NCBI GenBank assembly: GCA_030917445.1
Contig: JAUPUR010000016.1
Location: forward strand, 1 to 47,411
Length of the DNA stretch: 47,411 nt
Direction of reading: 5' to 3'
From: Patescibacteria group bacterium
Lineage (GTDB): Bacteria; Patescibacteriota; Microgenomatia; Levybacterales; UBA12049
Both the position numbers and the translations under genes were made by a program. The notes under the pieces are model-generated. The model was not told where the DNA came from. It saw only the letters and a list, made by a program, of their open reading frames with translations, and ran no database searches. This document shows, piece by piece, positions 30,834 to 41,444 of this stretch; the stretch's first letter is position 1; the number at the start of each line of letters is the position of its first letter.

Positions 30834-32327
30834 ATGACCTCATTTTTTGATAAAATTTTTACCCGTTATCCAATAAAAACCAAGCGAGCATTGGAAATCT
30901 CAATCGGTTTTGCATCATGGAGTGTTATTCTCTCTCCTCTTTGGGGATCGTTTCTTATTCCAGCCTTTCTTGCTTACTTTATACTTTTCTTTGATATTTA
31001 CTGGTTTTACAAATCATACTCTCTTGTGATCAACGCATATCGATCAAGTCAACGAATTAAAAAAGCTGAAAAAGAAGACTGGGTATCAAAAGCAAAAGTA
31101 CTTCCAGGTTTTGATAAGGTACATCATGTTCTCATCATGACAAGCTACAAAGAAAGTATTGAAAAAATGAGAACAACACTTGAGAACCTTACTCGCCAAA
31201 CACTCTCCCCTAAAAAATTATTCGTCGTTCTCGCTATGGAAGAGAGAGAACAAGAAGCAAAAGAAAAAGCAAGTATTCTCATAAAAGAATTTAAACCCTT
31301 TTTTGGAGATATGTTCGCAACATACCACATTGATGCACCTGGCGAAATTAAAGGAAAATCCTCAAATGAAGCATTTGCTGGAAAAGAAGCTCATGAAATT
31401 CTCTATCTCAAAGGCAAACTTGATATTGAATATGCAACAATCTCATCTGTCGATGTTGATTCAATATTTCATAAACATTTCTTTGCTTATCTCTCATACA
31501 AATATCTTGTTGATCCTCAGAGATATCATAAATTTTGGCAAACTGCCACAGTCTTTTACAACAATATTTGGAAAGTTCCCGCACCGATTCGAATTATTTC
31601 ATTCTTTGGAAGTTTGTGGAGGATTTCACTTCTTGTTCAAGGAGATAGACTTATTACACAATCAACTTACTCGCTTTCATTCAAAATGCTGAGAGATATT
31701 GGATTCTGGGATGCAGACGTTATACCTGAGGACTACAGAATCTTTTTCAAAGCATTCTTTAAATTAAAAGGGAAAGTCTGGGTCGAACCAATATTCCTCA
31801 AGACATCAATGGATGCAGCGTACTCACACGGATATATTAATAGTCTAAAAAACAAATATCACCAAGAAAGACGTTGGTCATGGGGTGTCTCTGATGACCC
31901 GCTTTTTATTAAATGGTGGTTCACAGTTCCAAATGTACCGTTTTTGAGAAAAACAGTTATGGTCTATCATGTGGTTATGGACCACTTCCTCTGGCCTGTA
32001 AATTGGTTCATTATAACCGTCGCAGCTAATGTTATGCCTTTTATCAATCCAGCTTTCTCTCGAACATCTCTTGGATATACACTTCCAAGCTTGGCCGGAT
32101 TTATTCTCACAGCGTGTATAGCTGCTATTTTTGCAATGATGTTTTTGGATTATAAAAACAGACCAGAGAATACCCAGCTACCACTTCACCGTAAAATATT
32201 CTTTCCGCTTGAATTTATCTTAATGCCAATTGTTGGATTTTTTCTTTCAGCATTGCCAGCACTTATTTCACATACGCAACTCATGCTTGGAAAGCGTATG
32301 GAATATAAAGTGACTGATAAAGCATGA
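30834..32327 (+). CDS. Integral-membrane processive family-2 glycosyltransferase (cellulose/chitin/hyaluronan-synthase-like)
   Basis: N- and C-terminal TM helices flank a cytoplasmic GT-A domain. It has SVDVDS (DxD-type) and HQERRWSWG (QxxRW) motifs. Confidence 0.75.
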   Translation: MTSFFDKIFTRYPIKTKRALEISIGFASWSVILSPLWGSFLIPAFLAYFILFFDIYWFYKSYSLVINAYRSSQRIKKAEKEDWVSKAKVLPGFDKVHHVLIMTSYKESIEKMRTTLENLTRQTLSPKKLFVVLAMEEREQEAKEKASILIKEFKPFFGDMFATYHIDAPGEIKGKSSNEAFAGKEAHEILYLKGKLDIEYATISSVDVDSIFHKHFFAYLSYKYLVDPQRYHKFWQTATVFYNNIWKVPAPIRIISFFGSLWRISLLVQGDRLITQSTYSLSFKMLRDIGFWDADVIPEDYRIFFKAFFKLKGKVWVEPIFLKTSMDAAYSHGYINSLKNKYHQERRWSWGVSDDPLFIKWWFTVPNVPFLRKTVMVYHVVMDHFLWPVNWFIITVAANVMPFINPAFSRTSLGYTLPSLAGFILTACIAAIFAMMFLDYKNRPENTQLPLHRKIFFPLEFILMPIVGFFLSALPALISHTQLMLGKRMEYKVTDKA

Positions 32328-33826
32328 AAAATCTATCCAAACTTGAAAAATGTAAAGAGTTTTGGTACCTCCTTTTCATAATTTGTCTTTTCTTTTTCCT
32401 CCGATTGCCTTCACTCATTGAGCCATATTGGTATGGAGATGAAGGTATCTATGAGGTACTTGGTGCAGGAATTTCACAAGGAAGAATACTTTATGCAGAA
32501 ATCTGGGATAACAAACCTCCACTACTTTATATTTTCTATGCACTCGTTGGAGCAGACCAATTTAATATTCGCCTCCTTTCTCTCTTGACGGGAATTGCAA
32601 CTATTCTTTCATTCTTTTCACTCTCACAAAAATTATTCAAAAGAACTTTCACGACTCTCATTGTAACGACTGTTTTCGCTATTGTTTTTGGACTTCCAAT
32701 TATTGAGGGCAATATCGCCAATGCTGAAAACTTTATGCTCCTTCCAATACTTCTTTCATTTTCAGTTTTTGTATCATTTTTTACTCAAAAGAAAATTTCA
32801 TATCTCAATAGTAAAAAGTTAGGATATCTTTTTTCTGGGTTTCTCCTTGGTTTTGCATTTCTCATAAAAACTGTTGCCCTTTTTGACTTTGCAGCAATAA
32901 TTTTTATTGCTATTATCGCTACGTTTAATGAGCAACTCTCCATTAAAAGATTCCTTCCCCAATTTCGAAAAATTTCACAGGAACTACTCTATCTCACTCT
33001 TGGATTTGTATCTCCATTGCTCATTTCCCTCCTGTACTTCTTAAGTGTTGGAGCATTGACACAGTATATCGATGCAATTTTTCTTTCTACAGTTGGGTAT
33101 GTAGGGTTTAATAATACTTTTTTTATTCCCCAAGGACTTCTCATCTCAAAAGTGATTCTATTAATCCTTTTTATCTCAATACTCTATTTAGTGAGAAAGA
33201 AAATATCATTTACATATCTTTTTATCTTTGTCTGGGTTGGTTTTTCAGTCTTCAATAGCTTCTTTTCTCATAGACCCTACACCCATTATTTGATTATCCT
33301 CCTTCCAAGCTTATGCCTACTTTTGGGACTTTGTCTTGAAGAATTACAGAGAAAAAGACTCATTGCTATCGGATCATTTATTTTTATTCTCTTTTTAGTT
33401 CTCAATTTCTTCAACCGATGGAGCTATACAAAAACAGTTATGTATTATCCAAATTTTGCTCTTTTTGTAACGAATAAAAAATCTCTTCATGATTACCAAT
33501 CATTTTTTGATAGAAGAACTCCACGTGATACAGAAGTTGCACTTTATGTTAAAAATCATCTGGCAAAAAATGCACATGTTTTTTACTGGGGCAACTCTGC
33601 ACAAATGTATAGGCTAAGTAACAAATTACCTCCTGGTCGTTTCACTGTTGCATATCACATAAAAACAAACGAGAATACATTGGAAGAAACATATGATGAT
33701 CTTTTACGTGTCAATCCAGAATATATTATTGTCCTTCCAGACATGGGAGCTTTTCCTTACCCAATGTACAACTATGTTCACAAACTAACCATTCAAGATA
33801 TTGAAATTTATGAACGAATTTATTAA
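32324..33826 (+). CDS. GT-C fold glycosyltransferase (ArnT/PMT_2-like, polyprenyl-phosphate-sugar dependent)
   Basis: ~12 TM helices. First loop reads FLRLPSLIEPYWYGDEGIY...DNKPPLLY, typical of the ArnT/PMT family. ATGA overlap with the upstream GT2 gene. Confidence 0.72.
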   Translation: MKNLSKLEKCKEFWYLLFIICLFFFLRLPSLIEPYWYGDEGIYEVLGAGISQGRILYAEIWDNKPPLLYIFYALVGADQFNIRLLSLLTGIATILSFFSLSQKLFKRTFTTLIVTTVFAIVFGLPIIEGNIANAENFMLLPILLSFSVFVSFFTQKKISYLNSKKLGYLFSGFLLGFAFLIKTVALFDFAAIIFIAIIATFNEQLSIKRFLPQFRKISQELLYLTLGFVSPLLISLLYFLSVGALTQYIDAIFLSTVGYVGFNNTFFIPQGLLISKVILLILFISILYLVRKKISFTYLFIFVWVGFSVFNSFFSHRPYTHYLIILLPSLCLLLGLCLEELQRKRLIAIGSFIFILFLVLNFFNRWSYTKTVMYYPNFALFVTNKKSLHDYQSFFDRRTPRDTEVALYVKNHLAKNAHVFYWGNSAQMYRLSNKLPPGRFTVAYHIKTNENTLEETYDDLLRVNPEYIIVLPDMGAFPYPMYNYVHKLTIQDIEIYERIY

Positions 33827-34164: not shown

Positions 34165-35226
34165 ATGCTTATCGTCACACTTTTACCATTTATTCTCTCA
34201 CTTTGCATAACTGCAGTACTCACATGGCTCCTTCTCCCTCTAATTAAAAAATATGGCCTTATTGATGACCCAAAACTCCATAAACATCCAGGAATTATTC
34301 ACACCAAACCAATCCCGCGCGGTGGTGGATTACCATTCTTTGTAGGAATACTACTTGTCTCACTTATACTTCTTCCATTTAACACTCAACTTTCAGCAAT
34401 ATTTCTTGCAAGTGCAATTGCGCTAATAGTTGGATTGATTGATGACAAATTTAATGCAGAGTCAAAAGATATTAGTCCTTATATAAGATTTCTTGTCAAC
34501 ATTTTATGTGCAACCATAGTAGTCGGAAGTGGAGTTAGTATCTCATTTATTACCAATCCATTTGGCGGAATACTCCATCTTGATACTATTTTAATTCCAC
34601 TACTTAACATTCCAATTGGAGATGTCATTGCAGGGCTTTGGATAATCTGGGTTATGAATATGCTCAACTGGAGCAAAGGTGTTGACGGACAAATGCCTGG
34701 AATTGTAGCGATATCTGCCCTAGTCATTGGATTACTTAGTCTTAGATTTACTGGGGGTGTGATAGATGCCCAATTGTCTTTCATCATTGCAGGAAGTGCT
34801 GTTGGATTTCTCATATTTAATTTTTCCCCAGCCAAAATATTTCCAGGATACGGCGCAACATCTGTCTATCTTCTATTGGCAGTTGTGTCTATTTTTTCAG
34901 GCGCAAAACTAGCTACTGCAATTCTTGTCATGGGAGTCCCAATTGTTGATGCTGTTTTCACAATTATCAGACGACTCATAAATAAAAAATCTCCTTTTAA
35001 GGGAGATCGACTACATCTCCATCATATTCTCCTTGACCTAGGTTACTCCCAAAGACAAGTTGCTTTTGCATATTGGGGATTCTCAGCTCTTCTAGGAACA
35101 GCTGCGTTAACACTTGAAAATAAAAGTAAAATTTTTGCACTCATTATGCTTCTGGTTATAGTCACGGGTGGATTACTTTTTTTACACTTTATGGTACGCT
35201 TAAGGCATGAAAAAGACGTTTCGTGA
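34165..35226 (+). CDS. Polyprenyl-phosphate N-acetylhexosamine-1-phosphate transferase (GT4, WecA/MraY family)
   Basis: 10-11 TM helices. GLIDDKF, NMLNWSKGVDGQ (the NxxNxxDGxDG position), and DRLHLHHILLDLGYS (WecA-type HIHH motif). Confidence 0.85.
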   Translation: MLIVTLLPFILSLCITAVLTWLLLPLIKKYGLIDDPKLHKHPGIIHTKPIPRGGGLPFFVGILLVSLILLPFNTQLSAIFLASAIALIVGLIDDKFNAESKDISPYIRFLVNILCATIVVGSGVSISFITNPFGGILHLDTILIPLLNIPIGDVIAGLWIIWVMNMLNWSKGVDGQMPGIVAISALVIGLLSLRFTGGVIDAQLSFIIAGSAVGFLIFNFSPAKIFPGYGATSVYLLLAVVSIFSGAKLATAILVMGVPIVDAVFTIIRRLINKKSPFKGDRLHLHHILLDLGYSQRQVAFAYWGFSALLGTAALTLENKSKIFALIMLLVIVTGGLLFLHFMVRLRHEKDVS

Positions 35227-36151
35227 TTATTTAAGACTTCTCCGTCCTCGACAATGGATTAAAAATCTAGCAGTATTTGCTGCCATTACTTTCAATGGTC
35301 AACTATTTAATATTGTGACACTTGAACAGGTCTTTGCAGGCTTTATTGTTTTTTGTGCAACATCAAGCGCGATCTATGTTATCAACGATATTTTTGATAT
35401 TGAGAAAGATAGACTACATCCTTTTAAAAAATTTAGACCTCTAGCAAATGGAGACATCCCAATCCCAGTGGCACTAGTAATTGCTCTTGTTTTGGGAACA
35501 AGTGCTGTCATTGCAAGTTATTTTATTTCAGAAGCATTCTTTCTTATTACTCTTGTCTATTTAATCCTACAGTTATCATATTCAATTGTTCTTAAAAATA
35601 TTGCGGTAATCGATATTCTTGCACTCGCTGGAGGATATATACTTCGAGTGTGGGCTGGAGAATTTTTAAGTGGATTTCATATTTCAGTTTGGTTATTGCT
35701 GACTGCAATTTCACTCTCGCTCTTTCTCGCTATAGGAAAAAGACGATCTGAACTTACCCTTGTTTCGCAGCACTCAAGTGCGCATATAGCAGCAATGAGA
35801 AAATCATTGTCACATTATTCAGAAAGACTTCTTGATGTTTATGCATCAATTTTTGCGACATCTACGTTTATCTCATACTCACTTTTTACGTTTCTTGAAA
35901 ATTCACGACGTTTTTCAATAACTAATGATTTTCTTTTTCCGGACTTTCTTCCCGGTTACCTTCAAAGAAAATGGCTAATGATAACAATTATTCCAGTAGT
36001 ATATGGACTGATGAGATATTTACAGGATATTTACGAAAAACATGAGGGAGAAAGTCCTGACAAAGTACTTCTTTCTGACAAACCTCTTTTAGCTACAGTT
36101 ATTACATGGATAGTCATGGTAATTGTCATTATTTATATTATCCAAGCCTGA
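35207..36151 (+). CDS. UbiA-superfamily prenyl-phosphate phosphoribosyltransferase (decaprenyl-phosphate phosphoribosyltransferase-like)
   Basis: LRPRQWIKNLAVFAA and NDIFDIEKDRLHPFKKFRPLANG match the DPPR-synthase (Rv3806c-type) signature. The start overlaps the WecA-like gene by 20 nt. Confidence 0.72.
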   Translation: MKKTFRDYLRLLRPRQWIKNLAVFAAITFNGQLFNIVTLEQVFAGFIVFCATSSAIYVINDIFDIEKDRLHPFKKFRPLANGDIPIPVALVIALVLGTSAVIASYFISEAFFLITLVYLILQLSYSIVLKNIAVIDILALAGGYILRVWAGEFLSGFHISVWLLLTAISLSLFLAIGKRRSELTLVSQHSSAHIAAMRKSLSHYSERLLDVYASIFATSTFISYSLFTFLENSRRFSITNDFLFPDFLPGYLQRKWLMITIIPVVYGLMRYLQDIYEKHEGESPDKVLLSDKPLLATVITWIVMVIVIIYIIQA

Positions 36152-37015
36152 TTATTCCTCTTTTCTCGCATATTGACTACTAATCCAACCTTCATCCCCA
36201 GTGGTTAATTTAATTTTGTACCAACCAGGAGCTTCATCTAAAATATCAAACGTATCACCTGGATTCACACGACCGATTTCATCAGAAGATGTTGATGCTG
36301 TTTGTCTAACTCTCAAAAATCCATTTGGTGTTTGAAGGATTGTTATTTTTGTAGGCAAAGAAACTGGAGTAATAGTGGCAGATGGAGAGGCTGTTGGACT
36401 CACTGTAGGCGTTGGCGTTGCGATAACACCATCTTCATCTACCCCGAGGTAAACTGATGCAACTAATTTATATCCATTTGGTGTGCGAATTCTTACTCTT
36501 TTTTCCGTGTAACCAGTTTTTTTAAGAATTATTTCATGATCAGACTCTGTAACATCTTTTAAAAGAATAGGTGAGAACCCCGATGGAGTATTATCAAGAA
36601 GGACTTCTGATTTATCTGGTTTCGAGATAACAAGTAGCTCCCTTTTGTTACCCTCCTTTAACGGCTCCAGAGTGATAATACTTCCTTCACTAGTTGCTCC
36701 TTTTCCAAATTTTCTATCAACAACTGTAAGTACTGATTTAGAAATTGTGATCTTTTCTTGAAACTCTGAAAATCCTCCAGAAAGAGGTACTATCCTTATT
36801 GTATACTCACCAGTTCTGAGCATATCTTTGGAGTCACATTTGCAAAGTGGAGTTTTTCCAATTGATTTTCCATTTATAAAAACCTCACTCTGAGGCGAAG
36901 ATGTCACCTGCAATGCTCCTTTTTCATTTCCTCTTAAAATAATTGACTGAACAATAAGAAAAGCAACCGAAGCAAAAATAAATGAAGGTATAAGAATAAG
37001 AAGAGCTTTTTTCAT
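36152..37015 (-). CDS. Anchored surface protein with two PEGA-like domains, PT linker and C-terminal SH3b-like domain
   Basis: Signal anchor, SSPQSEVFINGKSIGKTPL and SKPDKSEVLLDNTPSGFSP (PEGA-type). Linker TPTPTVSPTASPSATITP, then GFLRVRQ..GDTFDILDEAPGWYKIKL (SH3b). Confidence 0.7.
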   Translation of the reverse strand: MKKALLILIPSFIFASVAFLIVQSIILRGNEKGALQVTSSPQSEVFINGKSIGKTPLCKCDSKDMLRTGEYTIRIVPLSGGFSEFQEKITISKSVLTVVDRKFGKGATSEGSIITLEPLKEGNKRELLVISKPDKSEVLLDNTPSGFSPILLKDVTESDHEIILKKTGYTEKRVRIRTPNGYKLVASVYLGVDEDGVIATPTPTVSPTASPSATITPVSLPTKITILQTPNGFLRVRQTASTSSDEIGRVNPGDTFDILDEAPGWYKIKLTTGDEGWISSQYARKEE

Positions 37016-37065: not shown

Positions 37066-39324
37066 TTAAGCTTTCACAATACCAAAAACCTCAATCTCTC
37101 CACCACAGTACTTTATTATCCTGTCACATGCATCTTTAAGTGTCTTTTCTATTTGATCTGGAGAGATATCATATATTCCATCTACATTTACATAAAGATT
37201 TTTTGTCTCAAGTGTGACTGCAGTTCTTTTACTATCTCGGAAATTGAAATCGATATTATATCCACCAACTTTATCAAAATAAGCGATCTCTGTTGATTTA
37301 TACGAAGTCTCTTCCGAATCACCTAAAAGCTCTATTTTCTCTCCCTCTTGTGCAAATCTTAAAACTGTAGGGAAAAGTATAGAGTCAAAATCAAACGCTC
37401 CTATGGAAATTTTACTTTCAAGTACCACCATATTATATGCATCAACACAGGTATTAACGGTGTAGAGACCTTTTCCTGTCGCCAACCGTCTCAGAAGAGC
37501 TTCAGGGGACGGTCTTCGAGAATGATAATCAATTCCCATTTCTTTATAAAGTTTTCTATATTGCAATACCTCAGGAATTGTATTTATATCTTCAGTTGTA
37601 AGTGAAGAAAATGAACTCACTATTCTTTCTTTTTCTTCTTCTAAGTTTTTATCTATCTTTTCAATTGTGACACCTTTAATAACTGCAATACCTACTGATA
37701 TACTTGGAAATTTCTCAGAAACTTTCTGATCTATATGAAAATATCCTGTGTTTTTTAAAAGTGTTATCGGTGCATCGTTATTTTGCTTTAAAGATATATT
37801 CGAAACATCCTCAAATCGGGAACGAACAAAATCTTTATCAAGTGATAAGATAAGCCAACCTGCTTTTGGCCCATGTGATTTCCCAAGCAACGCCTGATAT
37901 AAAGCACCAAATGCATCTTTAGATGGAACATTTAATTCCTTTGACTTTTCATAAATTGCTTTTTGAAATGATTCAGGATCCCATTCTTCTAGCATCATGT
38001 CACTAACTTCTTTAAGAAATTTCTTTTGTAAATCATTCAAATCTTTCGCAGAAAGGGGGATCTCTTTTTGCACGGTAAATTTCTCATTTTCAGAAGCAAA
38101 TCTATCAACCCAAATACGCGCATATTTTGCCCATTCTTCGAGACCTTCTTTCTCAATATATGACTTCATATTAGGCATCTGGACAAACTGTGCTAGTGCT
38201 GAAAAACGGATTTGGGGAGGAAGTGTAATACTTTCATTCACCTGAGAAAGCTCAAAGATTCTTGCCATTTCCTCATCTGAATTTGACTCGTAAGCCAAAG
38301 CATATCTTTGGTATTCGTCAAAAAGTTTTGGGATCACATCTGGTTCATATGGATCAAAATTAGTTTGTTTTCTAATATCCATTTTAACAATTAAAAATCT
38401 GACAAGTTCTGGCGGAAGGATTTCTACCATATCAGCAGCAGCAAAACCACGACCTTTTGAAGATGACATTTTTTTACCTCCAATCAACATAAACTCATAA
38501 CTAACGGGGTAGGGTACATCATAATGGAATACTCTCTCACAAAAAAGTTTTGCCATATCATGTGATCCACCGGCACTCATATGATCTTTTCCAGCTCCTT
38601 CAACAGTTACACCAATTGCTTGCCACTTAGCTGGCCACTCAACTTTCCATGGAAGCTTTCCTCTCATCTCTAATTCGTCACTAAAGGGTGATACCTTACC
38701 TTCGTATCCACAACCCTTAGTCCACTCTGTTGCATCGACTGGACATCTATAAAAGACTTTTTCACCATCCCAATTAAAAACTCTTGTTGTTGAAACTTTC
38801 TGGCAATTTTCACAGTACACCTGAAAGGGATACCAATCAGATGGAAGATCTTTTTTATACATCTCTTTATAGATCTTTCTTATTTCCTCAGCGTTATCAA
38901 GAACAACTTTTATTCCAGGATTCATTTTCCCTGAGGTATACAGATCTTTAGTCCAAATTATTTCAGGATGGCAACCAATTTTGTTAAATGCTCCTTTAAA
39001 CTCATACGCATAATACTCAGCAAAATCTTTATACCCATCTACTGGAGATGGAATTTTGTATAAAGGCATACCTAAATATTTTTCAAAAATCTCTCGAGGT
39101 AAATAAGAAGGGATATCATCCATCGGATCGTGATTTTCAAAAACGTATGTATATTTTGTATTTACTCCTGCATCTTTAAGTGATTTATAAACGAGGTCAT
39201 GAAAAACAACACCAAGTAACGATCCTACGTGAACTCTTCCTGAGGGTGTTTTCATATCATCTACCCACTCAAGTGGTAAATTTCTTTTCTTTAATTGTTG
39301 TGCTACTTCGTCTGCCCAAAACAT
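37066..39324 (-). CDS. lysK: Class I lysine--tRNA ligase fused to a C-terminal B3/B4 (PheRS-beta editing-domain-like, COG3382-type) domain
   Basis: Class I LysRS: TPSGRVHVGSLLG (HIGH-type), KMSSSKG (KMSKS), ~525 aa. The extra ~225 aa read IPEVLQYRKLYKEMGIDYHSRRPSPEALLRRL..LYTVNTCVDAYNMVVLESKISIGAFDFD..FRDSKRTAVT. The ORF-track start at 39369 is TTG, and the first ATG is at 39324. Confidence 0.88.
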   Translation of the reverse strand: MFWADEVAQQLKKRNLPLEWVDDMKTPSGRVHVGSLLGVVFHDLVYKSLKDAGVNTKYTYVFENHDPMDDIPSYLPREIFEKYLGMPLYKIPSPVDGYKDFAEYYAYEFKGAFNKIGCHPEIIWTKDLYTSGKMNPGIKVVLDNAEEIRKIYKEMYKKDLPSDWYPFQVYCENCQKVSTTRVFNWDGEKVFYRCPVDATEWTKGCGYEGKVSPFSDELEMRGKLPWKVEWPAKWQAIGVTVEGAGKDHMSAGGSHDMAKLFCERVFHYDVPYPVSYEFMLIGGKKMSSSKGRGFAAADMVEILPPELVRFLIVKMDIRKQTNFDPYEPDVIPKLFDEYQRYALAYESNSDEEMARIFELSQVNESITLPPQIRFSALAQFVQMPNMKSYIEKEGLEEWAKYARIWVDRFASENEKFTVQKEIPLSAKDLNDLQKKFLKEVSDMMLEEWDPESFQKAIYEKSKELNVPSKDAFGALYQALLGKSHGPKAGWLILSLDKDFVRSRFEDVSNISLKQNNDAPITLLKNTGYFHIDQKVSEKFPSISVGIAVIKGVTIEKIDKNLEEEKERIVSSFSSLTTEDINTIPEVLQYRKLYKEMGIDYHSRRPSPEALLRRLATGKGLYTVNTCVDAYNMVVLESKISIGAFDFDSILFPTVLRFAQEGEKIELLGDSEETSYKSTEIAYFDKVGGYNIDFNFRDSKRTAVTLETKNLYVNVDGIYDISPDQIEKTLKDACDRIIKYCGGEIEVFGIVKA

Positions 39325-39349
39325 GTGCTTTATTATAAGTGATTGCTCG

Positions 39350-40315
39350 CTATTTCGAAAGTTTTTCAAAACCTTTCAAAAATGATGTTGCCATCTCCCC
39401 TAAATCACTTATATTGTATCCTCCTTCCTGAACAAGTAGAGTCGGTACTTTTAATGTTGAGATGTCTTCAGCCATCGATTGATAATATGGTATTGTTAAT
39501 TGAAATCCCCCAATTGGATCGTGTTCGTATGTGTCAAATCCTAAAGACACAATGAGATAATCGGGTTTAAATATCCGAATATCTGAAAGAGCACGCTGTA
39601 AAAATTTCTGATATTTTTGAGGTGTCGTTCCCAACGGAAGAGGATAATTCATTGTATACCCTTCTCCCTCTCCCCGTCCTTTTTCATCACTAAAACCTGA
39701 ACTATATGGGAATTTTACTTTTGGATCTGCATGAATTGAAACGTACAATACATCTGATCTGTCGTAAAAAAGATTTTGTGTTCCATTTCCGTGATGGAAA
39801 TCGACGTCAAGAATTGCTACTTTTCCATGTTGTGCTAAATAATGCGCTGCAATCGCGGCATTATTAAAGTAACAATAACCCCCCATCATTTTTTGCTCAG
39901 CGTGATGACCAGGAGGTCGACAAAGTGAATAAACAATATTCTCACCACCGATAATGAGTTCTGCTCCTGTTAACGCAACATTGACAGAACTATATGCTGC
40001 ACCATAAGTGCCTGCAGTAATAGGAGAGTATGTATCCATTATAAAATATGAGGGATACAATATCTCGTCATCACGTAATCTTTTTGACCTTGTTCTGACA
40101 AAATCAACATATACTTTTTGATGAAGCGCATGAATATGATCTAATGAAAATCTTCTTGGTGACATAAAAGACGTAAAATTATTATTTTTTAACGTCGTCA
40201 CTATTGACTCAATGCGATCAGCTTTTTCAGCGTACGACTCTTTAACCCCATCATATATCTCATATGGAGGATTATGTTCTTTATGTTTTTTTGTATAAAT
40301 AATTGGTAATTTCAT
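39350..40315 (-). CDS. Histone-deacetylase-family Zn amidohydrolase (protein-lysine or acetylpolyamine deacetylase)
   Basis: CRPPGHHA, DVDFHHGNGTQ, GFDTYEHDP. SD GGAGG lies 7 nt upstream of the ATG. Confidence 0.9.
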   Translation of the reverse strand: MKLPIIYTKKHKEHNPPYEIYDGVKESYAEKADRIESIVTTLKNNNFTSFMSPRRFSLDHIHALHQKVYVDFVRTRSKRLRDDEILYPSYFIMDTYSPITAGTYGAAYSSVNVALTGAELIIGGENIVYSLCRPPGHHAEQKMMGGYCYFNNAAIAAHYLAQHGKVAILDVDFHHGNGTQNLFYDRSDVLYVSIHADPKVKFPYSSGFSDEKGRGEGEGYTMNYPLPLGTTPQKYQKFLQRALSDIRIFKPDYLIVSLGFDTYEHDPIGGFQLTIPYYQSMAEDISTLKVPTLLVQEGGYNISDLGEMATSFLKGFEKLSK

Positions 40316-40359: not shown

Positions 40360-41394
40360 CTAGCTCCTTGTCATTCTTAGCATTGTATCAACTTGCACTG
40401 GGTCATAAAAGCTTTCTATGACATCCCGTGGCATATACATAAATGTGAAGTCACGAAGACTTCCTTCTGGGACATCTTGTCCATCGTTAACAAGAACATT
40501 TTGGACAATAATTTGAGGTGCACGCTCTCTACTTGGGACTATCAATCCTGCTCCTGCACCTGCACGATCTGATCGAGACTGAAAATTGCATTCAGCATAA
40601 ATAAGTGGCAATCCATTCCCTCCATGCCTAAAATCTGAAAGAATTCGACTATTAAGCATAGCGAGAGTCGCTGTCATAAGACCCCTTCCTGCATATTCAT
40701 CTCTTGTTCTCCATTCAGTATTTTCAACAAGATGAAGGTCACCTTCTCTCCCAGGGATTGATAATCTTTCAGCCATTGCTGCACTTACGATAGTACCATT
40801 ATCATGAACAGCACTAAACCAGACATCTCTATCAGTTGGGTCAGTTGTTCTAGATCCATCAAGCCTTCGCCTAAGTGCATCTACCTCATGTCTCTCCCAA
40901 CCAAAAGTCGGTCCCCAAAGACTATGTAATTGATCAACCTGATCCTCTTGAATAGAATCACTAAAATGTAGTCCGGATTCAACGACACTTCTTACCCTTT
41001 CAAGTGGATTACTCCGCATAACATCTGACTCCGTTGCTGATATCATCTGTTCTGTCGACGTTAATTGCTGCCTACTCGCTGAATTTTGTGCAAAATACAC
41101 TAAATATGCATTTTCTTGAGAAAATTCTTGGAGTGGTACAGCAACTTCTAATAAATGCTCAAACTCTGTTCCTGCAACAGCTTCAACAACTTCTTCACTT
41201 ACTACACCACGAAGTACCCCACGAGAAATCTGCGGATGATTTTCCACAATGGAGCTCACTCTCCTCACGTTTCTTCCGACTTCATCGAAACTTGAAGAAA
41301 AACGAGTAGCGTTTCCATAAATTCGATCATATGGTCTTCTTGTAACTCCAGCACTTCCTGTACTAGAAAATATTTGTTCTTTTTCTTGATTCAT
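40360..41394 (-). CDS. Hypothetical 344-aa protein, nearly lysine-free, C-terminal half GNAT-acyltransferase-like
   Basis: Strong SD AAAGGAGGTG with a 6-nt spacer before ATG 41394 (the ORF-track TTG at 41421 is unlikely). GNAT-like strand/helix pattern VHDNGTIVSAAMAERL..LHLVENTEWRTRDEYAGRGLMTATLAML..LIYAECNF..AGAGAGLIV. One Lys against roughly three dozen Arg. Confidence 0.75.
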   Translation of the reverse strand: MNQEKEQIFSSTGSAGVTRRPYDRIYGNATRFSSSFDEVGRNVRRVSSIVENHPQISRGVLRGVVSEEVVEAVAGTEFEHLLEVAVPLQEFSQENAYLVYFAQNSASRQQLTSTEQMISATESDVMRSNPLERVRSVVESGLHFSDSIQEDQVDQLHSLWGPTFGWERHEVDALRRRLDGSRTTDPTDRDVWFSAVHDNGTIVSAAMAERLSIPGREGDLHLVENTEWRTRDEYAGRGLMTATLAMLNSRILSDFRHGGNGLPLIYAECNFQSRSDRAGAGAGLIVPSRERAPQIIVQNVLVNDGQDVPEGSLRDFTFMYMPRDVIESFYDPVQVDTMLRMTRS

Positions 41395-41416
41395 ATTTTT
41401 CACCTCCTTTTTCAAA

Positions 41417-41444
41417 CACAAAAAAACCCCTTCTGAGAGGGGTT
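41417..41444 (-). terminator. Intrinsic-terminator-like hairpin B (AACCCCT-ctcaga-AGGGGTT + TTTTTgtgttt)
   Basis: 7-bp stem with a U-tract on the minus strand. It ends ~7 nt before the SD of the lysine-free ORF. Confidence 0.6.

What the first reader, a model, noticed from the sequence alone, without database searches (positions are those of the whole stretch)
37069..37740. Class I LysRS carries a C-terminal B3/B4 domain, the fold PheRS-beta uses for editing
Class I LysRS is normally ~520-530 aa. This one is ~750 aa. The extra C-terminal ~225 aa match the stand-alone B3/B4 (COG3382-type) pattern: ..YRKLYKEMGIDYHSRRPSPEALLRRL..G..LYTVNTCVDAYNMVVLESKISIGAFDFD..FRDSKRTAVT... In PheRS the B3/B4 domain hydrolyses mischarged Tyr-tRNAPhe. 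LysRS enzymes are not known to have a dedicated post-transfer editing domain. The fusion may add cis-editing, for example against ornithine, homocysteine or other near-cognates or modified Lys-tRNA. Alternatively it may add extra tRNA binding.
Basis: partly seen in the sequence, partly recalled or inferred. Interest (0 to 1): 0.6.

Follow-up and report, generated by a model that had tools for sequence, protein, structure and literature searches.

The report
LysRS with tethered CtdA-like deacylase
The only lysine-charging enzyme of this tiny uncultured (Patescibacteria) bacterium ends in a complete, very strongly conserved copy of a tRNA-proofreading enzyme of the CtdA/B3-B4 type, which probably gives lysyl-tRNA synthetase an error-correction step that has not been described for it.

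Summary
One uninterrupted gene (window 37066-39324, minus strand, 752 aa from ATG 39324) encodes a complete class I LysRS, a short variable linker, and a 226-aa module. The LysRS part scores 361 bits on TIGR00467. The module scores 73.8 bits on Pfam B3_4 against a cut-off of 29.3.

It is not an assembly error: more than 100 homologs on separate contigs have the same architecture.

The module is a whole free-standing deacylase of the CtdA kind, not only a PheRS B3/B4 core. Foldseek gives TM 0.81-0.83 over the entire CtdA chain. It is the most conserved part of the protein.

In a module tree it falls in a well-supported clade made only of C-terminal fusions to class I and class II LysRS. The characterised CtdA nests among ArgRS-fused modules. 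The two groups have different pocket signatures.

The fusion is patchy: 5 of 60 class I LysRS genes in 401 sampled genomes of the phylum. Cores 75-78% identical occur with and without it, so it is an accessory.

My best reading is a tethered post-transfer proofreading domain for mischarged tRNALys (confidence about 0.6). The substrate is unknown.

I found no paper describing it. This scan has already reported the same fusion on other DNA, in at least 20 genomes.

The parts
37066..39324 (-). Whole gene: class I LysRS, linker and CtdA-like module. 752 codons from ATG 39324, plus the stop codon at 37066-37068. The ORF is also open upstream to a TTG at 39369 (767 codons), which is unlikely to be used.
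   Evidence: Homologs start at the same Met (M1 invariant in 109 sequences).
38239..39321 (-). Class I LysRS catalytic (Rossmann) domain, ORF residues 17-377. The HIGH-type motif HVGS is at 39220-39231. The KMSKS-type motif KMSSSKG is at 38452-38472. Four invariant Cys lie at ORF residues 186, 189, 209 and 220.
   Evidence: Pfam PF01921, E 7e-90. TIGR00467, 361 bits. Motif positions. Invariant columns. Foldseek match to 1irx, TM 0.84-0.85.
37810..38043 (-). C-terminal helical anticodon-binding region of LysRS, ORF residues 443-520. Unfused relatives end just after this point.
   Evidence: Pfam Anticodon_2, E 3.1e-5. Unfused sister proteins end at ...LDKEFVKKRF.
37747..37809 (-). Variable inter-domain linker, ORF residues 521-541. 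It contains the only low-confidence stretch of the model, at 37774-37788.
   Evidence: Mean column conservation for ORF residues 521-545 is 0.38, against 0.68-0.83 elsewhere. AF2 pLDDT is below 50 only at residues 513-517 of the 752-aa protein.
37069..37746 (-). Complete CtdA-like (B3/B4-fold) aminoacyl-tRNA deacylase module, ORF residues 542-767. It is as long as a free-standing family member.
   Evidence: It aligns end to end with stand-alone 220-240-aa proteins. Profile against the PDB: CtdA 9f7e 3.5e-33 and 9mkl 1.1e-31. Foldseek TMt 0.81-0.83 over 232-238 columns. It is the most conserved part of the protein, 0.83.
37102..37560 (-). Pfam B3_4 match inside the module, ORF residues 604-756.
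   Evidence: 73.8 bits, cut-off 29.3. One search gives the same coordinates from the genome search.
37186..37464 (-). Span holding the predicted aminoacyl-pocket and catalytic positions, by alignment to S. enterica CtdA (CtdA residue in brackets): Y636 (A95), N646 (N105), G657 (G116), F659 (E118), D660 (N119), N705 (C166), I706 (R167), F708 (W169), N709 (N170), R711 (R172), D712 (Q173), T716 (T177), N728 (I189).
   Evidence: Site mapping. Codon positions. N646, G657, F659, D660, N705, F708, N709, R711, D712, T716 and N728 are invariant or at least 90% conserved in 109 fused homologs; Y636 and I706 are not in that list. The roles of the CtdA residues come from PMC12449066.

Best explanation
The gene encodes the cell's housekeeping class I lysyl-tRNA synthetase with a complete CtdA-type aminoacyl-tRNA deacylase tethered to its C-terminus by a flexible linker of about 20 residues.

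Proposed mechanism:
- The synthetase body charges tRNALys.
- When it attaches a non-cognate amino acid, the tethered module captures the 3' end of that aa-tRNA as it leaves the synthetic site, or just after release and before EF-Tu binds.
- The module hydrolyses the ester bond. A conserved Asn (N646) would position the water, as in PheRS-beta and CtdA.
- The non-cognate amino acid is most likely a cationic lysine look-alike such as ornithine, thialysine or arginine.
- Cognate Lys-tRNALys is spared by the shape and chemistry of a pocket whose lining is specific to LysRS-attached modules (F659, N705, I706, F708, D712, N728).

Shown here: domain identities, fold, integrity of the fusion, strong purifying selection on the module and its pocket positions, recurrence on both unrelated LysRS classes, and dispensability for aminoacylation.

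Inferred: hydrolytic activity, action on tRNALys, the identity of the rejected amino acid, and the tethered trans-like geometry.
For: 1. The fusion is real and intact: a single ORF, and the same architecture in at least 118 of the 120 best homologs.

2. The module is a whole CtdA-type protein:
- It matches stand-alone 220-240-aa proteins end to end.
- The module-family profile hits CtdA at 3.5e-33 and 1.1e-31, against 2.4e-14 for PheRS-beta.
- The AF2 model has pLDDT 92.5.
- Foldseek gives TMt 0.81-0.83 to CtdA over its whole chain.
- CtdA is an experimentally proven aa-tRNA deacylase (PMC10018355, PMC12449066).

3. Selection acts on the module. It is the most conserved region: 0.83, against 0.75 for the catalytic domain and 0.38 for the linker. 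Eleven of the 13 positions that align with CtdA pocket or catalytic residues are invariant or at least 90% conserved in 109 homologs. These include the Asn and Gly whose mutation inactivates CtdA.

4. The module follows the substrate, not the scaffold. Closely related modules sit on class II LysRS, an unrelated fold (P0133, P0148, P0192). In a careful ML tree the window's module lies in a clade of 28 rows (support 98/97) made of 18 LysRS1 fusions, 9 LysRS2 C-terminal fusions and 1 short ORF. Characterised CtdA nests among ArgRS-fused modules (96/93).

5. Pocket signatures differ by partner. ArgRS-fused modules keep the CtdA pattern (E118 11/11, R167 11/11, C166 8/11, W169 9/11). C-terminal LysRS modules of both classes share F/Y118, mostly I/L167, D173 and a plurality of N at 166 and 189.

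6. The module is accessory. LysRS1 cores 75-78% identical exist with and without it. No core column tracks its presence. This fits conditional proofreading rather than a role in charging.

7. This is the only LysRS found in the genome. No lysA was found, so lysine is probably scavenged from an uncontrolled pool.
Against: There is no biochemical data for any LysRS-fused module.

Several CtdA pocket residues are replaced (E118F, C166N, Q173D, I189N). Activity therefore cannot be carried over from CtdA by residue identity.

The attachment point lies at the anticodon-binding end of LysRS1, far from the acceptor end. A classical CCA-flip cis-editing geometry is therefore not evident, and pTM 0.67 gives no reliable inter-domain orientation.

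Most class I LysRS in the phylum manage without the module: 55 of 60 in the sample.

Class I LysRS is reported to be rather selective, and Orn-tRNA is intrinsically labile (my own knowledge, not tested here).

Two N-terminal LysRS2 fusions carry the Arg/CtdA-like signature. The link between partner and pocket is therefore not absolute.
Confidence: 0.6

Rival explanations
1. The module is a non-catalytic tRNA-binding or tRNA-retention domain. A B3/B4 fold would have been co-opted to raise affinity for tRNALys, or to hold the product, and it would have no hydrolytic role.
For: aaRS often gain RNA-binding appendages. One LysRS2 fusion also carries a tRNA_bind/YtpR-like domain next to the module (P0148), which shows selection for tRNA contacts in these architectures. 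Several CtdA pocket residues are not conserved.
Against: The strictest conservation falls on positions homologous to the CtdA and PheRS catalytic or pocket residues (N646, G657, N709, R711, D712, T716) and not on a surface patch. The module is more conserved than the synthetase core. Closely related cores work without it, and no core column separates fused from unfused proteins.
Confidence: 0.15
2. The module is an active enzyme, but its job is not to correct LysRS errors. Possibilities:
- A general trans-acting deacylase for other aa-tRNAs.
- Removal of D-aminoacyl or N-blocked (for example N-acetyl) Lys-tRNA.
- Controlled hydrolysis or transfer of Lys from Lys-tRNALys for a non-translational use such as cell-envelope chemistry.
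For: Free-standing deacylases often have specificities unrelated to their aaRS relatives (PMC11415595). The gene sits among envelope genes (MurB, glycosyltransferase family 4, UbiA, PEGA/SH3). In the window and its closest relative an HDAC-type deacetylase lies directly upstream. LysRS fusions that divert Lys-tRNA are known: the NCBIfam model for LysX is listed.
Against: The module recurs on both unrelated LysRS classes, and a separate subclade occurs on ArgRS. This ties function to the partner's substrate. The upstream deacetylase is not conserved: it is absent in L028 and replaced by a decarboxylase in L029. No transferase activity is known for this fold (my own knowledge).
Confidence: 0.2
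3. The fusion is an artefact: two adjacent genes merged by a frameshift, by a lost stop codon, or by chimeric assembly.
For: None found.
Against: The same continuous architecture occurs in more than 100 homologs at 53-100% identity from independent samples and assemblers. It also occurs in 4 other genomes of the sampled phylum, as single frames of 773-782 aa with no internal stops. The AF2 model folds both bodies confidently.
Confidence: 0.01

Closest known systems
CtdA, canavanyl-tRNA(Arg) deacylase (free-standing B3/B4 protein; PDB 9f7e and 9mkl; PMC10018355, PMC12449066)
   Same: The whole-chain fold is shared, including the CtdA-type N-terminal helices (TMt 0.81-0.83). It is the best sequence-profile match in the PDB. 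The Asn (N105/N646) and Gly (G116/G657) whose mutation inactivates CtdA are conserved, as are N170, R172 and T177. The size is the same, about 226-230 aa.
   Different: This module is fused to a synthetase, not free-standing. Its partner is LysRS, not ArgRS. The pocket residues differ: E118 to F, C166 to N, R167 to I, W169 to F, Q173 to D, I189 to N. It lies in a different, well-supported clade from CtdA, which groups with ArgRS-fused modules. Its substrate is unknown and is unlikely to be canavanine.
B3/B4 editing domain of PheRS beta subunit (hydrolyses Tyr- and m-Tyr-tRNAPhe)
   Same: Same Pfam family (B3_4). The Asn of the NTCVDAYN motif (E. coli N254) and the xAFD motif (E. coli F267-D268) are shared. 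Both are a cis-attached hydrolytic domain on a synthetase.
   Different: The profile match is far weaker than to CtdA (2.4e-14 against 3.5e-33), and Foldseek hits are partial (about 1e-9). H265 is replaced by G and G318 by D. The module has the CtdA-type inserts rather than the PheRS-type ones. The genome's own PheT carries its own separate B3/B4 domain.
Class I LysRS (Pyrococcus horikoshii, PDB 1irx; TIGR00467)
   Same: The N-terminal 505 aa match in sequence (361 bits) and in fold (TMt 0.84-0.85). The HIGH-type and KMSKS-type motifs and the Cys cluster are intact.
   Different: Canonical enzymes are about 505-560 aa and end where this protein's linker begins. None is described with a hydrolytic editing domain.
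Trans-editing factors acting on LysRS products (INS-superfamily ProXp-type deacylases, as reviewed in PMC11415595)
   Same: They show that tRNALys mischarging occurs and is worth correcting after transfer.
   Different: They have an unrelated fold (INS/YbaK-like) and are free-standing. They act on small uncharged residues such as Ser and Thr (my own knowledge). The module here has an Asp at the predicted pocket floor, by alignment to CtdA Q173.

Membership tests
Class I lysyl-tRNA synthetase (TIGR00467 / PF01921) | Score above the curated cut-offs of the family models over the full length | tested here: met
   TIGR00467: 361.4 bits against 147.55, model positions 1-512 of 515. PF01921: 302 bits against 27.
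Class I lysyl-tRNA synthetase (TIGR00467 / PF01921) | Class I signature motifs (HIGH-type and KMSKS-type) intact | tested here: met
   HVGS at ORF residue 47 and KMSSSKG at ORF residue 300. H32, G34, K285, M286, S289 and G291 (752-aa numbering) are invariant or nearly invariant in 109 homologs.
Class I lysyl-tRNA synthetase (TIGR00467 / PF01921) | Fold of the solved class I LysRS | tested here: met
   Foldseek match to 1irx: E 8.5e-37, TMt 0.84-0.85 over 532 columns.
Class I lysyl-tRNA synthetase (TIGR00467 / PF01921) | Lysylation of tRNALys | not testable with these tools
   Indirect only. It is the sole LysRS candidate in an 87%-complete genome.
Pfam B3_4 domain (PF03483) | Profile match above the gathering threshold | tested here: met
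   73.8 bits against 29.3, profile positions 2-174 of 174. The module alone scores 77 bits.
CtdA family (canavanyl-tRNAArg deacylase) | Complete B3/B4 fold with CtdA-type inserts, about 230 aa | tested here: met
   TMt 0.81-0.83, rmsd about 3 A, over 232-238 columns of the 226-231-residue chains.
CtdA family (canavanyl-tRNAArg deacylase) | Free-standing single-domain protein | tested here: not met
   It is fused to the C-terminus of LysRS in one ORF.
CtdA family (canavanyl-tRNAArg deacylase) | Functionally essential N105 and G116 | tested here: met
   N646 and G657 align to them and are invariant in 109 homologs.
CtdA family (canavanyl-tRNAArg deacylase) | Specificity residues E118, C166, Q173 and I189 | tested here: not met
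   The window has F659, N705, D712 and N728 at these positions.
CtdA family (canavanyl-tRNAArg deacylase) | Phylogenetic placement with characterised CtdA | tested here: not met
   The window's module lies in a 28-row LysRS-only clade (98/97). CtdA lies among ArgRS-fused modules (96/93).
CtdA family (canavanyl-tRNAArg deacylase) | Hydrolysis of canavanyl-tRNAArg | not testable with these tools
PheRS beta-subunit editing domain | Embedded in PheT between the B1/B2 and B5 domains | tested here: not met
   The partner here is LysRS. The genome's PheT is a separate gene on contig C73.
PheRS beta-subunit editing domain | E. coli editing-site residues N254, H265, F267 and G318 | tested here: inconclusive
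   N and F are conserved (N646, F659). H265 is replaced by G657 and G318 by D712.

The most novel reading that the evidence does not exclude
CtdA-like modules form a general, partner-tuned proofreading system for the cationic amino acids, recruited in cis by CPR bacteria. One subclade would be attached to ArgRS (Arg look-alikes, as for CtdA). A distinct subclade would be attached to either class of LysRS, making it the first dedicated post-transfer editing domain of lysyl-tRNA synthetase, specific for a lysine analogue that these scavenging cells meet in their host-derived amino-acid pool.
Probability: 0.5. Interest if true: 0.75.

Novelty: new variant of a known kind. Interest (0 to 1): 0.62.

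Why it matters
It has no hydrolytic editing domain.

A conserved deacylase tethered to both non-homologous LysRS classes would add LysRS, and by the parallel fusions ArgRS, to the synthetases with post-transfer editing. It would extend the newly discovered CtdA family beyond canavanine. It would also point to a lysine antimetabolite that matters in the ecology of ultra-small, amino-acid-scavenging bacteria.

The partner-specific pocket signatures give a concrete mutagenesis map. The natural fused and unfused sister pairs, at 75-78% identity, are ready-made controls for experiments.

Tried and rejected
- A single-sequence AF2 run of the 752-aa protein was useless (pLDDT 32.7). It was replaced by a run with a 109-sequence alignment.
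- I looked for LysRS1 core positions that co-vary with presence of the module. Only one weak column turned up (I/L at 492), and it differs in 1 of 5 sister pairs, so there is no detectable co-adaptation.
- I looked for module remnants or the PEGA/SH3 neighbour beside the unfused same-family LysRS genes (G328, G106). None was found within the roughly 1.1 kb fetched downstream.
It is present in the closest relative, absent in one further relative, and replaced by an Orn/DAP/Arg decarboxylase in another. I rejected it as a functional link.
- There are no tRNA genes in the window.
- A class II LysRS was suspected on contig C9. It is AspRS.
- Literature searches for LysRS with B3/4, CtdA or Patescibacteria found nothing that describes the fusion. 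One search was badly phrased and uninformative.
- I could not analyse pocket geometry because model coordinates are not exposed. Pocket assignments therefore rest on sequence alignment to CtdA.
Full report
**What is there.** The minus-strand ORF 37066..39369 is open for 767 codons from a TTG. The real start is almost certainly ATG 39324, which gives 752 aa. It lies 25 nt after the stop of the upstream gene, and all 108 aligned homologs begin with the same Met. Residue numbers below are ORF numbers; subtract 15 for the 752-aa protein.

Profile hits:
- Pfam tRNA-synt_1f on residues 17-377 (E 7e-90), Anticodon_2 on 443-520, and B3_4 on 604-756 (E 1.6e-20, 73.8 bits against a cut-off of 29.3).
- NCBIfam lysS_arch at 361 bits against a cut-off of 147.6, over residues 16-520.
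- The class I motifs HVGS (residue 47) and KMSSSKG (residue 300) are intact.

**Not an artefact.** A search of 5.8 billion proteins returned 3743 relatives. At least 118 of the best 120 (53-100% identity, about 750 aa, many independent samples) carry both PF01921 and PF03483. Four other genomes of the same phylum have the fusion as single frames of 773-782 aa with no internal stops. Organism names on related contigs are Gottesmanbacteria, Levyibacteriota, Woesebacteria, Roizmanbacteria and 'Patescibacteria group'.

The window's assembly is 0.75 Mb and 87% complete. It holds only two B3_4 domains, one in PheT and this one. Other genome checks:
- No class II LysRS was found; the only class II D/K/N hit is AspRS.
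- ArgRS is unfused.
- No lysA was detected.

**What the appended part is.** It is a whole protein of the free-standing B3/B4 family, not just a B3/B4 core.
- A HMMER scan of 1.84 billion representatives gave 1922 hits. These include many 220-240-aa proteins aligned end to end at 25-59% identity.
- A profile of the module plus 48 stand-alone relatives hits the two CtdA structures at 3.5e-33 and 1.1e-31. The best PheRS-beta hit is 2.4e-14.
- An AlphaFold2 model built on 109 homologs has mean pLDDT 92.5. Its only disordered stretch is the linker, residues 513-517 of the 752-aa protein. pTM is 0.67, so the two bodies are confident but their mutual orientation is not.
- Foldseek matches the N-terminal body to class I LysRS 1irx (TMt 0.84-0.85). 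It matches the C-terminal body to CtdA 9f7e and 9mkl over their entire chains (TMt 0.81-0.83, 232-238 columns). PheRS-beta hits are weaker and partial.

CtdA is a proven canavanyl-tRNAArg deacylase (PMC10018355, PMC12449066).

**Selection.** Among 112 full-length homologs, mean column conservation is as follows:

| Region | Conservation |
|---|---|
| B3_4 region | 0.83 |
| Catalytic domain | 0.75 |
| Anticodon-binding region | 0.68 |
| Linker | 0.38 |

I mapped the CtdA residues studied by mutagenesis onto the window:

| S. enterica CtdA | Window |
|---|---|
| N105 | N646 |
| G116 | G657 |
| E118 | F659 |
| N119 | D660 |
| C166 | N705 |
| R167 | I706 |
| W169 | F708 |
| N170 | N709 |
| R172 | R711 |
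| Q173 | D712 |
| T177 | T716 |
| I189 | N728 |

All of these except I706 are invariant or at least 90% conserved in the 109 aligned fused proteins. The Asn and Gly whose mutation kills CtdA are kept. The residues proposed to read the canavanine side chain are replaced, but by an equally conserved alternative set.

**The module follows lysine, not the scaffold.** I classified the top 150 representatives by their partner domain:

| Partner | Count |
|---|---|
| Class I LysRS | 24 |
| Class II LysRS | 15 |
| ArgRS | 10 |
| TyrRS | 1 |
| ORFs of 280 aa or less (stand-alone proteins and fragments) | 92 |

Family scans confirm these architectures. Examples:
- LysRS2 + B3/4 (P0133).
- LysRS2 + tRNA_bind + B3/4 + HD (P0148).
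- B3/4 + LysRS2 (P0192).
- B3/4 + ArgRS (nine proteins).

I built a careful ML tree of 75 modules, rooted on the genome's own PheT B3/4. The window's module lies in a clade of 28 rows (UFBoot/SH-aLRT 98/97). That clade consists of 18 LysRS1 fusions, 9 LysRS2 C-terminal fusions and one short ORF. The two characterised CtdA sequences nest among ArgRS-fused modules (96/93). A 17-row clade (97/79) holds all 11 ArgRS-fused modules. The quick 138-row tree agrees.

Pocket signatures follow the same split:
- ArgRS-fused modules keep the CtdA pattern: E118 11/11, R167 11/11, C166 8/11, W169 9/11, E/Q173.
- C-terminal LysRS modules of both classes share F/Y118, D173 and mostly I/L167. N is the most common residue at 166 and 189, and position 169 is mostly F, Y or L.

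Caveats:
- The CtdA rows are partial sequences taken from the PDB alignment print-out, and they sit on a long branch.
- Some short ORFs are fragments.
- Two N-terminal LysRS2 fusions carry the Arg-like signature.

**Accessory, not integral.** In 401 sampled genomes of the phylum, 60 have a class I LysRS, and only 5 of these are in frames of 750 aa or more. Both other genomes of the window's own family have 506- and 508-aa enzymes and no module anywhere.

On a tree of LysRS1 cores, fused and unfused proteins interleave, and starred branches force at least 7 changes. The two same-family unfused proteins are sisters of fused ones at 75-78% core identity. They end exactly where the linker starts. 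No core column separates fused from unfused.

The module is therefore a plug-in that is gained or lost cleanly and is not needed for charging. One genome (G317) has an unfused LysRS1 and a separate 243-aa module gene.

**Mechanism.** The evidence best fits a tethered post-transfer proofreading domain. The synthetase occasionally attaches a non-cognate amino acid to tRNALys, and the module hydrolyses it.

The module is attached at different places on LysRS1 (C-terminus, at the anticodon-binding end), on LysRS2 (C- or N-terminus) and on ArgRS (N-terminus), always through variable linkers. I infer that it acts like a trans-editing factor held at high local concentration, rather than through a fixed CCA-flip geometry.

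The Asp at the position of CtdA Q173, together with the Arg and Lys partners, suggests a cationic side chain. Ornithine, thialysine and arginine are candidates. That is inference only.

The main rivals are a non-catalytic tRNA-binding role, argued against by the pattern of conservation, and an enzymatic role unrelated to LysRS errors.

**Novelty.** Databases annotate these proteins simply as lysine--tRNA ligase. The CtdA papers do not mention LysRS or any fusion. Full-text searches for LysRS with B3/4, CtdA or Patescibacteria found nothing describing it. A 2024 review lists CtdA only as a free-standing factor and does not list LysRS among the synthetases it names as having editing domains.

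This scan has already reported the same fusion on other DNA: 20 findings in at least 20 genomes, with the same reading. I reached CtdA and the two-class recurrence independently before seeing those notes.

Noticed in passing
window 39350-40315 (-) and 40360-41421 (-): An HDAC-type deacetylase gene (Pfam Hist_deacetyl, 1.1e-76) ends 25 nt upstream of the LysRS start. Upstream of that is a 353-aa ORF with only a sub-threshold GNAT hit. The pair also sits between MurB and LysRS in the closest relative (L027). It is absent in L028, and an Orn/DAP/Arg decarboxylase takes its place in L029. A lysine or polyamine-related slot next to LysRS is curious, but it is not conserved.
   Followed up: partly
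P0110 (Roizmanbacteria LysRS1, 1077 aa) and P0178 (ArgRS, 1124 aa): Some fusions carry two tandem CtdA-like modules. In P0110 they lie at 582-805 and 847-1073. In P0178 they lie at 1-232 and 265-502.
   Followed up: partly
P0115 and P0076 (LysRS1 fusions, 977 and 959 aa); P0133 and P0148 (LysRS2 fusions): An extra C-terminal HD or HDIG phosphohydrolase-like tail follows the module on both LysRS classes. Pfam HD scores 1.1e-8 in P0148 and is sub-threshold in P0133. P0115 has no Pfam HD hit at E 1e-3 or better; its tail shows an H..HD motif. LysRS is a known Ap4A producer and some HD proteins hydrolyse Ap4A (my own knowledge), so this could be a second clean-up activity.
   Followed up: partly
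P0220 (655 aa): A CtdA-like module is fused to the N-terminus of a TyrRS (TIGR00234, 307 bits). It is a single representative, on a long branch in the module tree.
   Followed up: no
P0192 and P0239 (N-terminal B3/4 + class II LysRS): These N-terminal LysRS2 fusions carry the CtdA/ArgRS-type pocket signature (D/E118, C166, K/R167, W169, E173) and cluster with the ArgRS-fused modules. This is unlike the C-terminal LysRS fusions. It may be a different specificity, such as Arg-like residues on tRNALys.
   Followed up: partly
G317 (C1:106611-107666 and C3:106900-107550): One genome of the phylum has an unfused 514-aa LysRS1 and a separate 243-aa module gene on another contig. This is a natural split version of the system.
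   Followed up: no
window 36152-37015 (-), 35207-36151 (+), 34165-35226 (+), 32324-33826 (+): The downstream neighbourhood is conserved in relatives (L027-L029). It comprises a PEGA/SH3 protein, a UbiA prenyltransferase and a glycosyltransferase family 4 (MraY/WecA-like) protein, and in L027-L028 also a 117-aa ORF and a PMT-like membrane protein. This looks like a cell-envelope block.
   Followed up: partly
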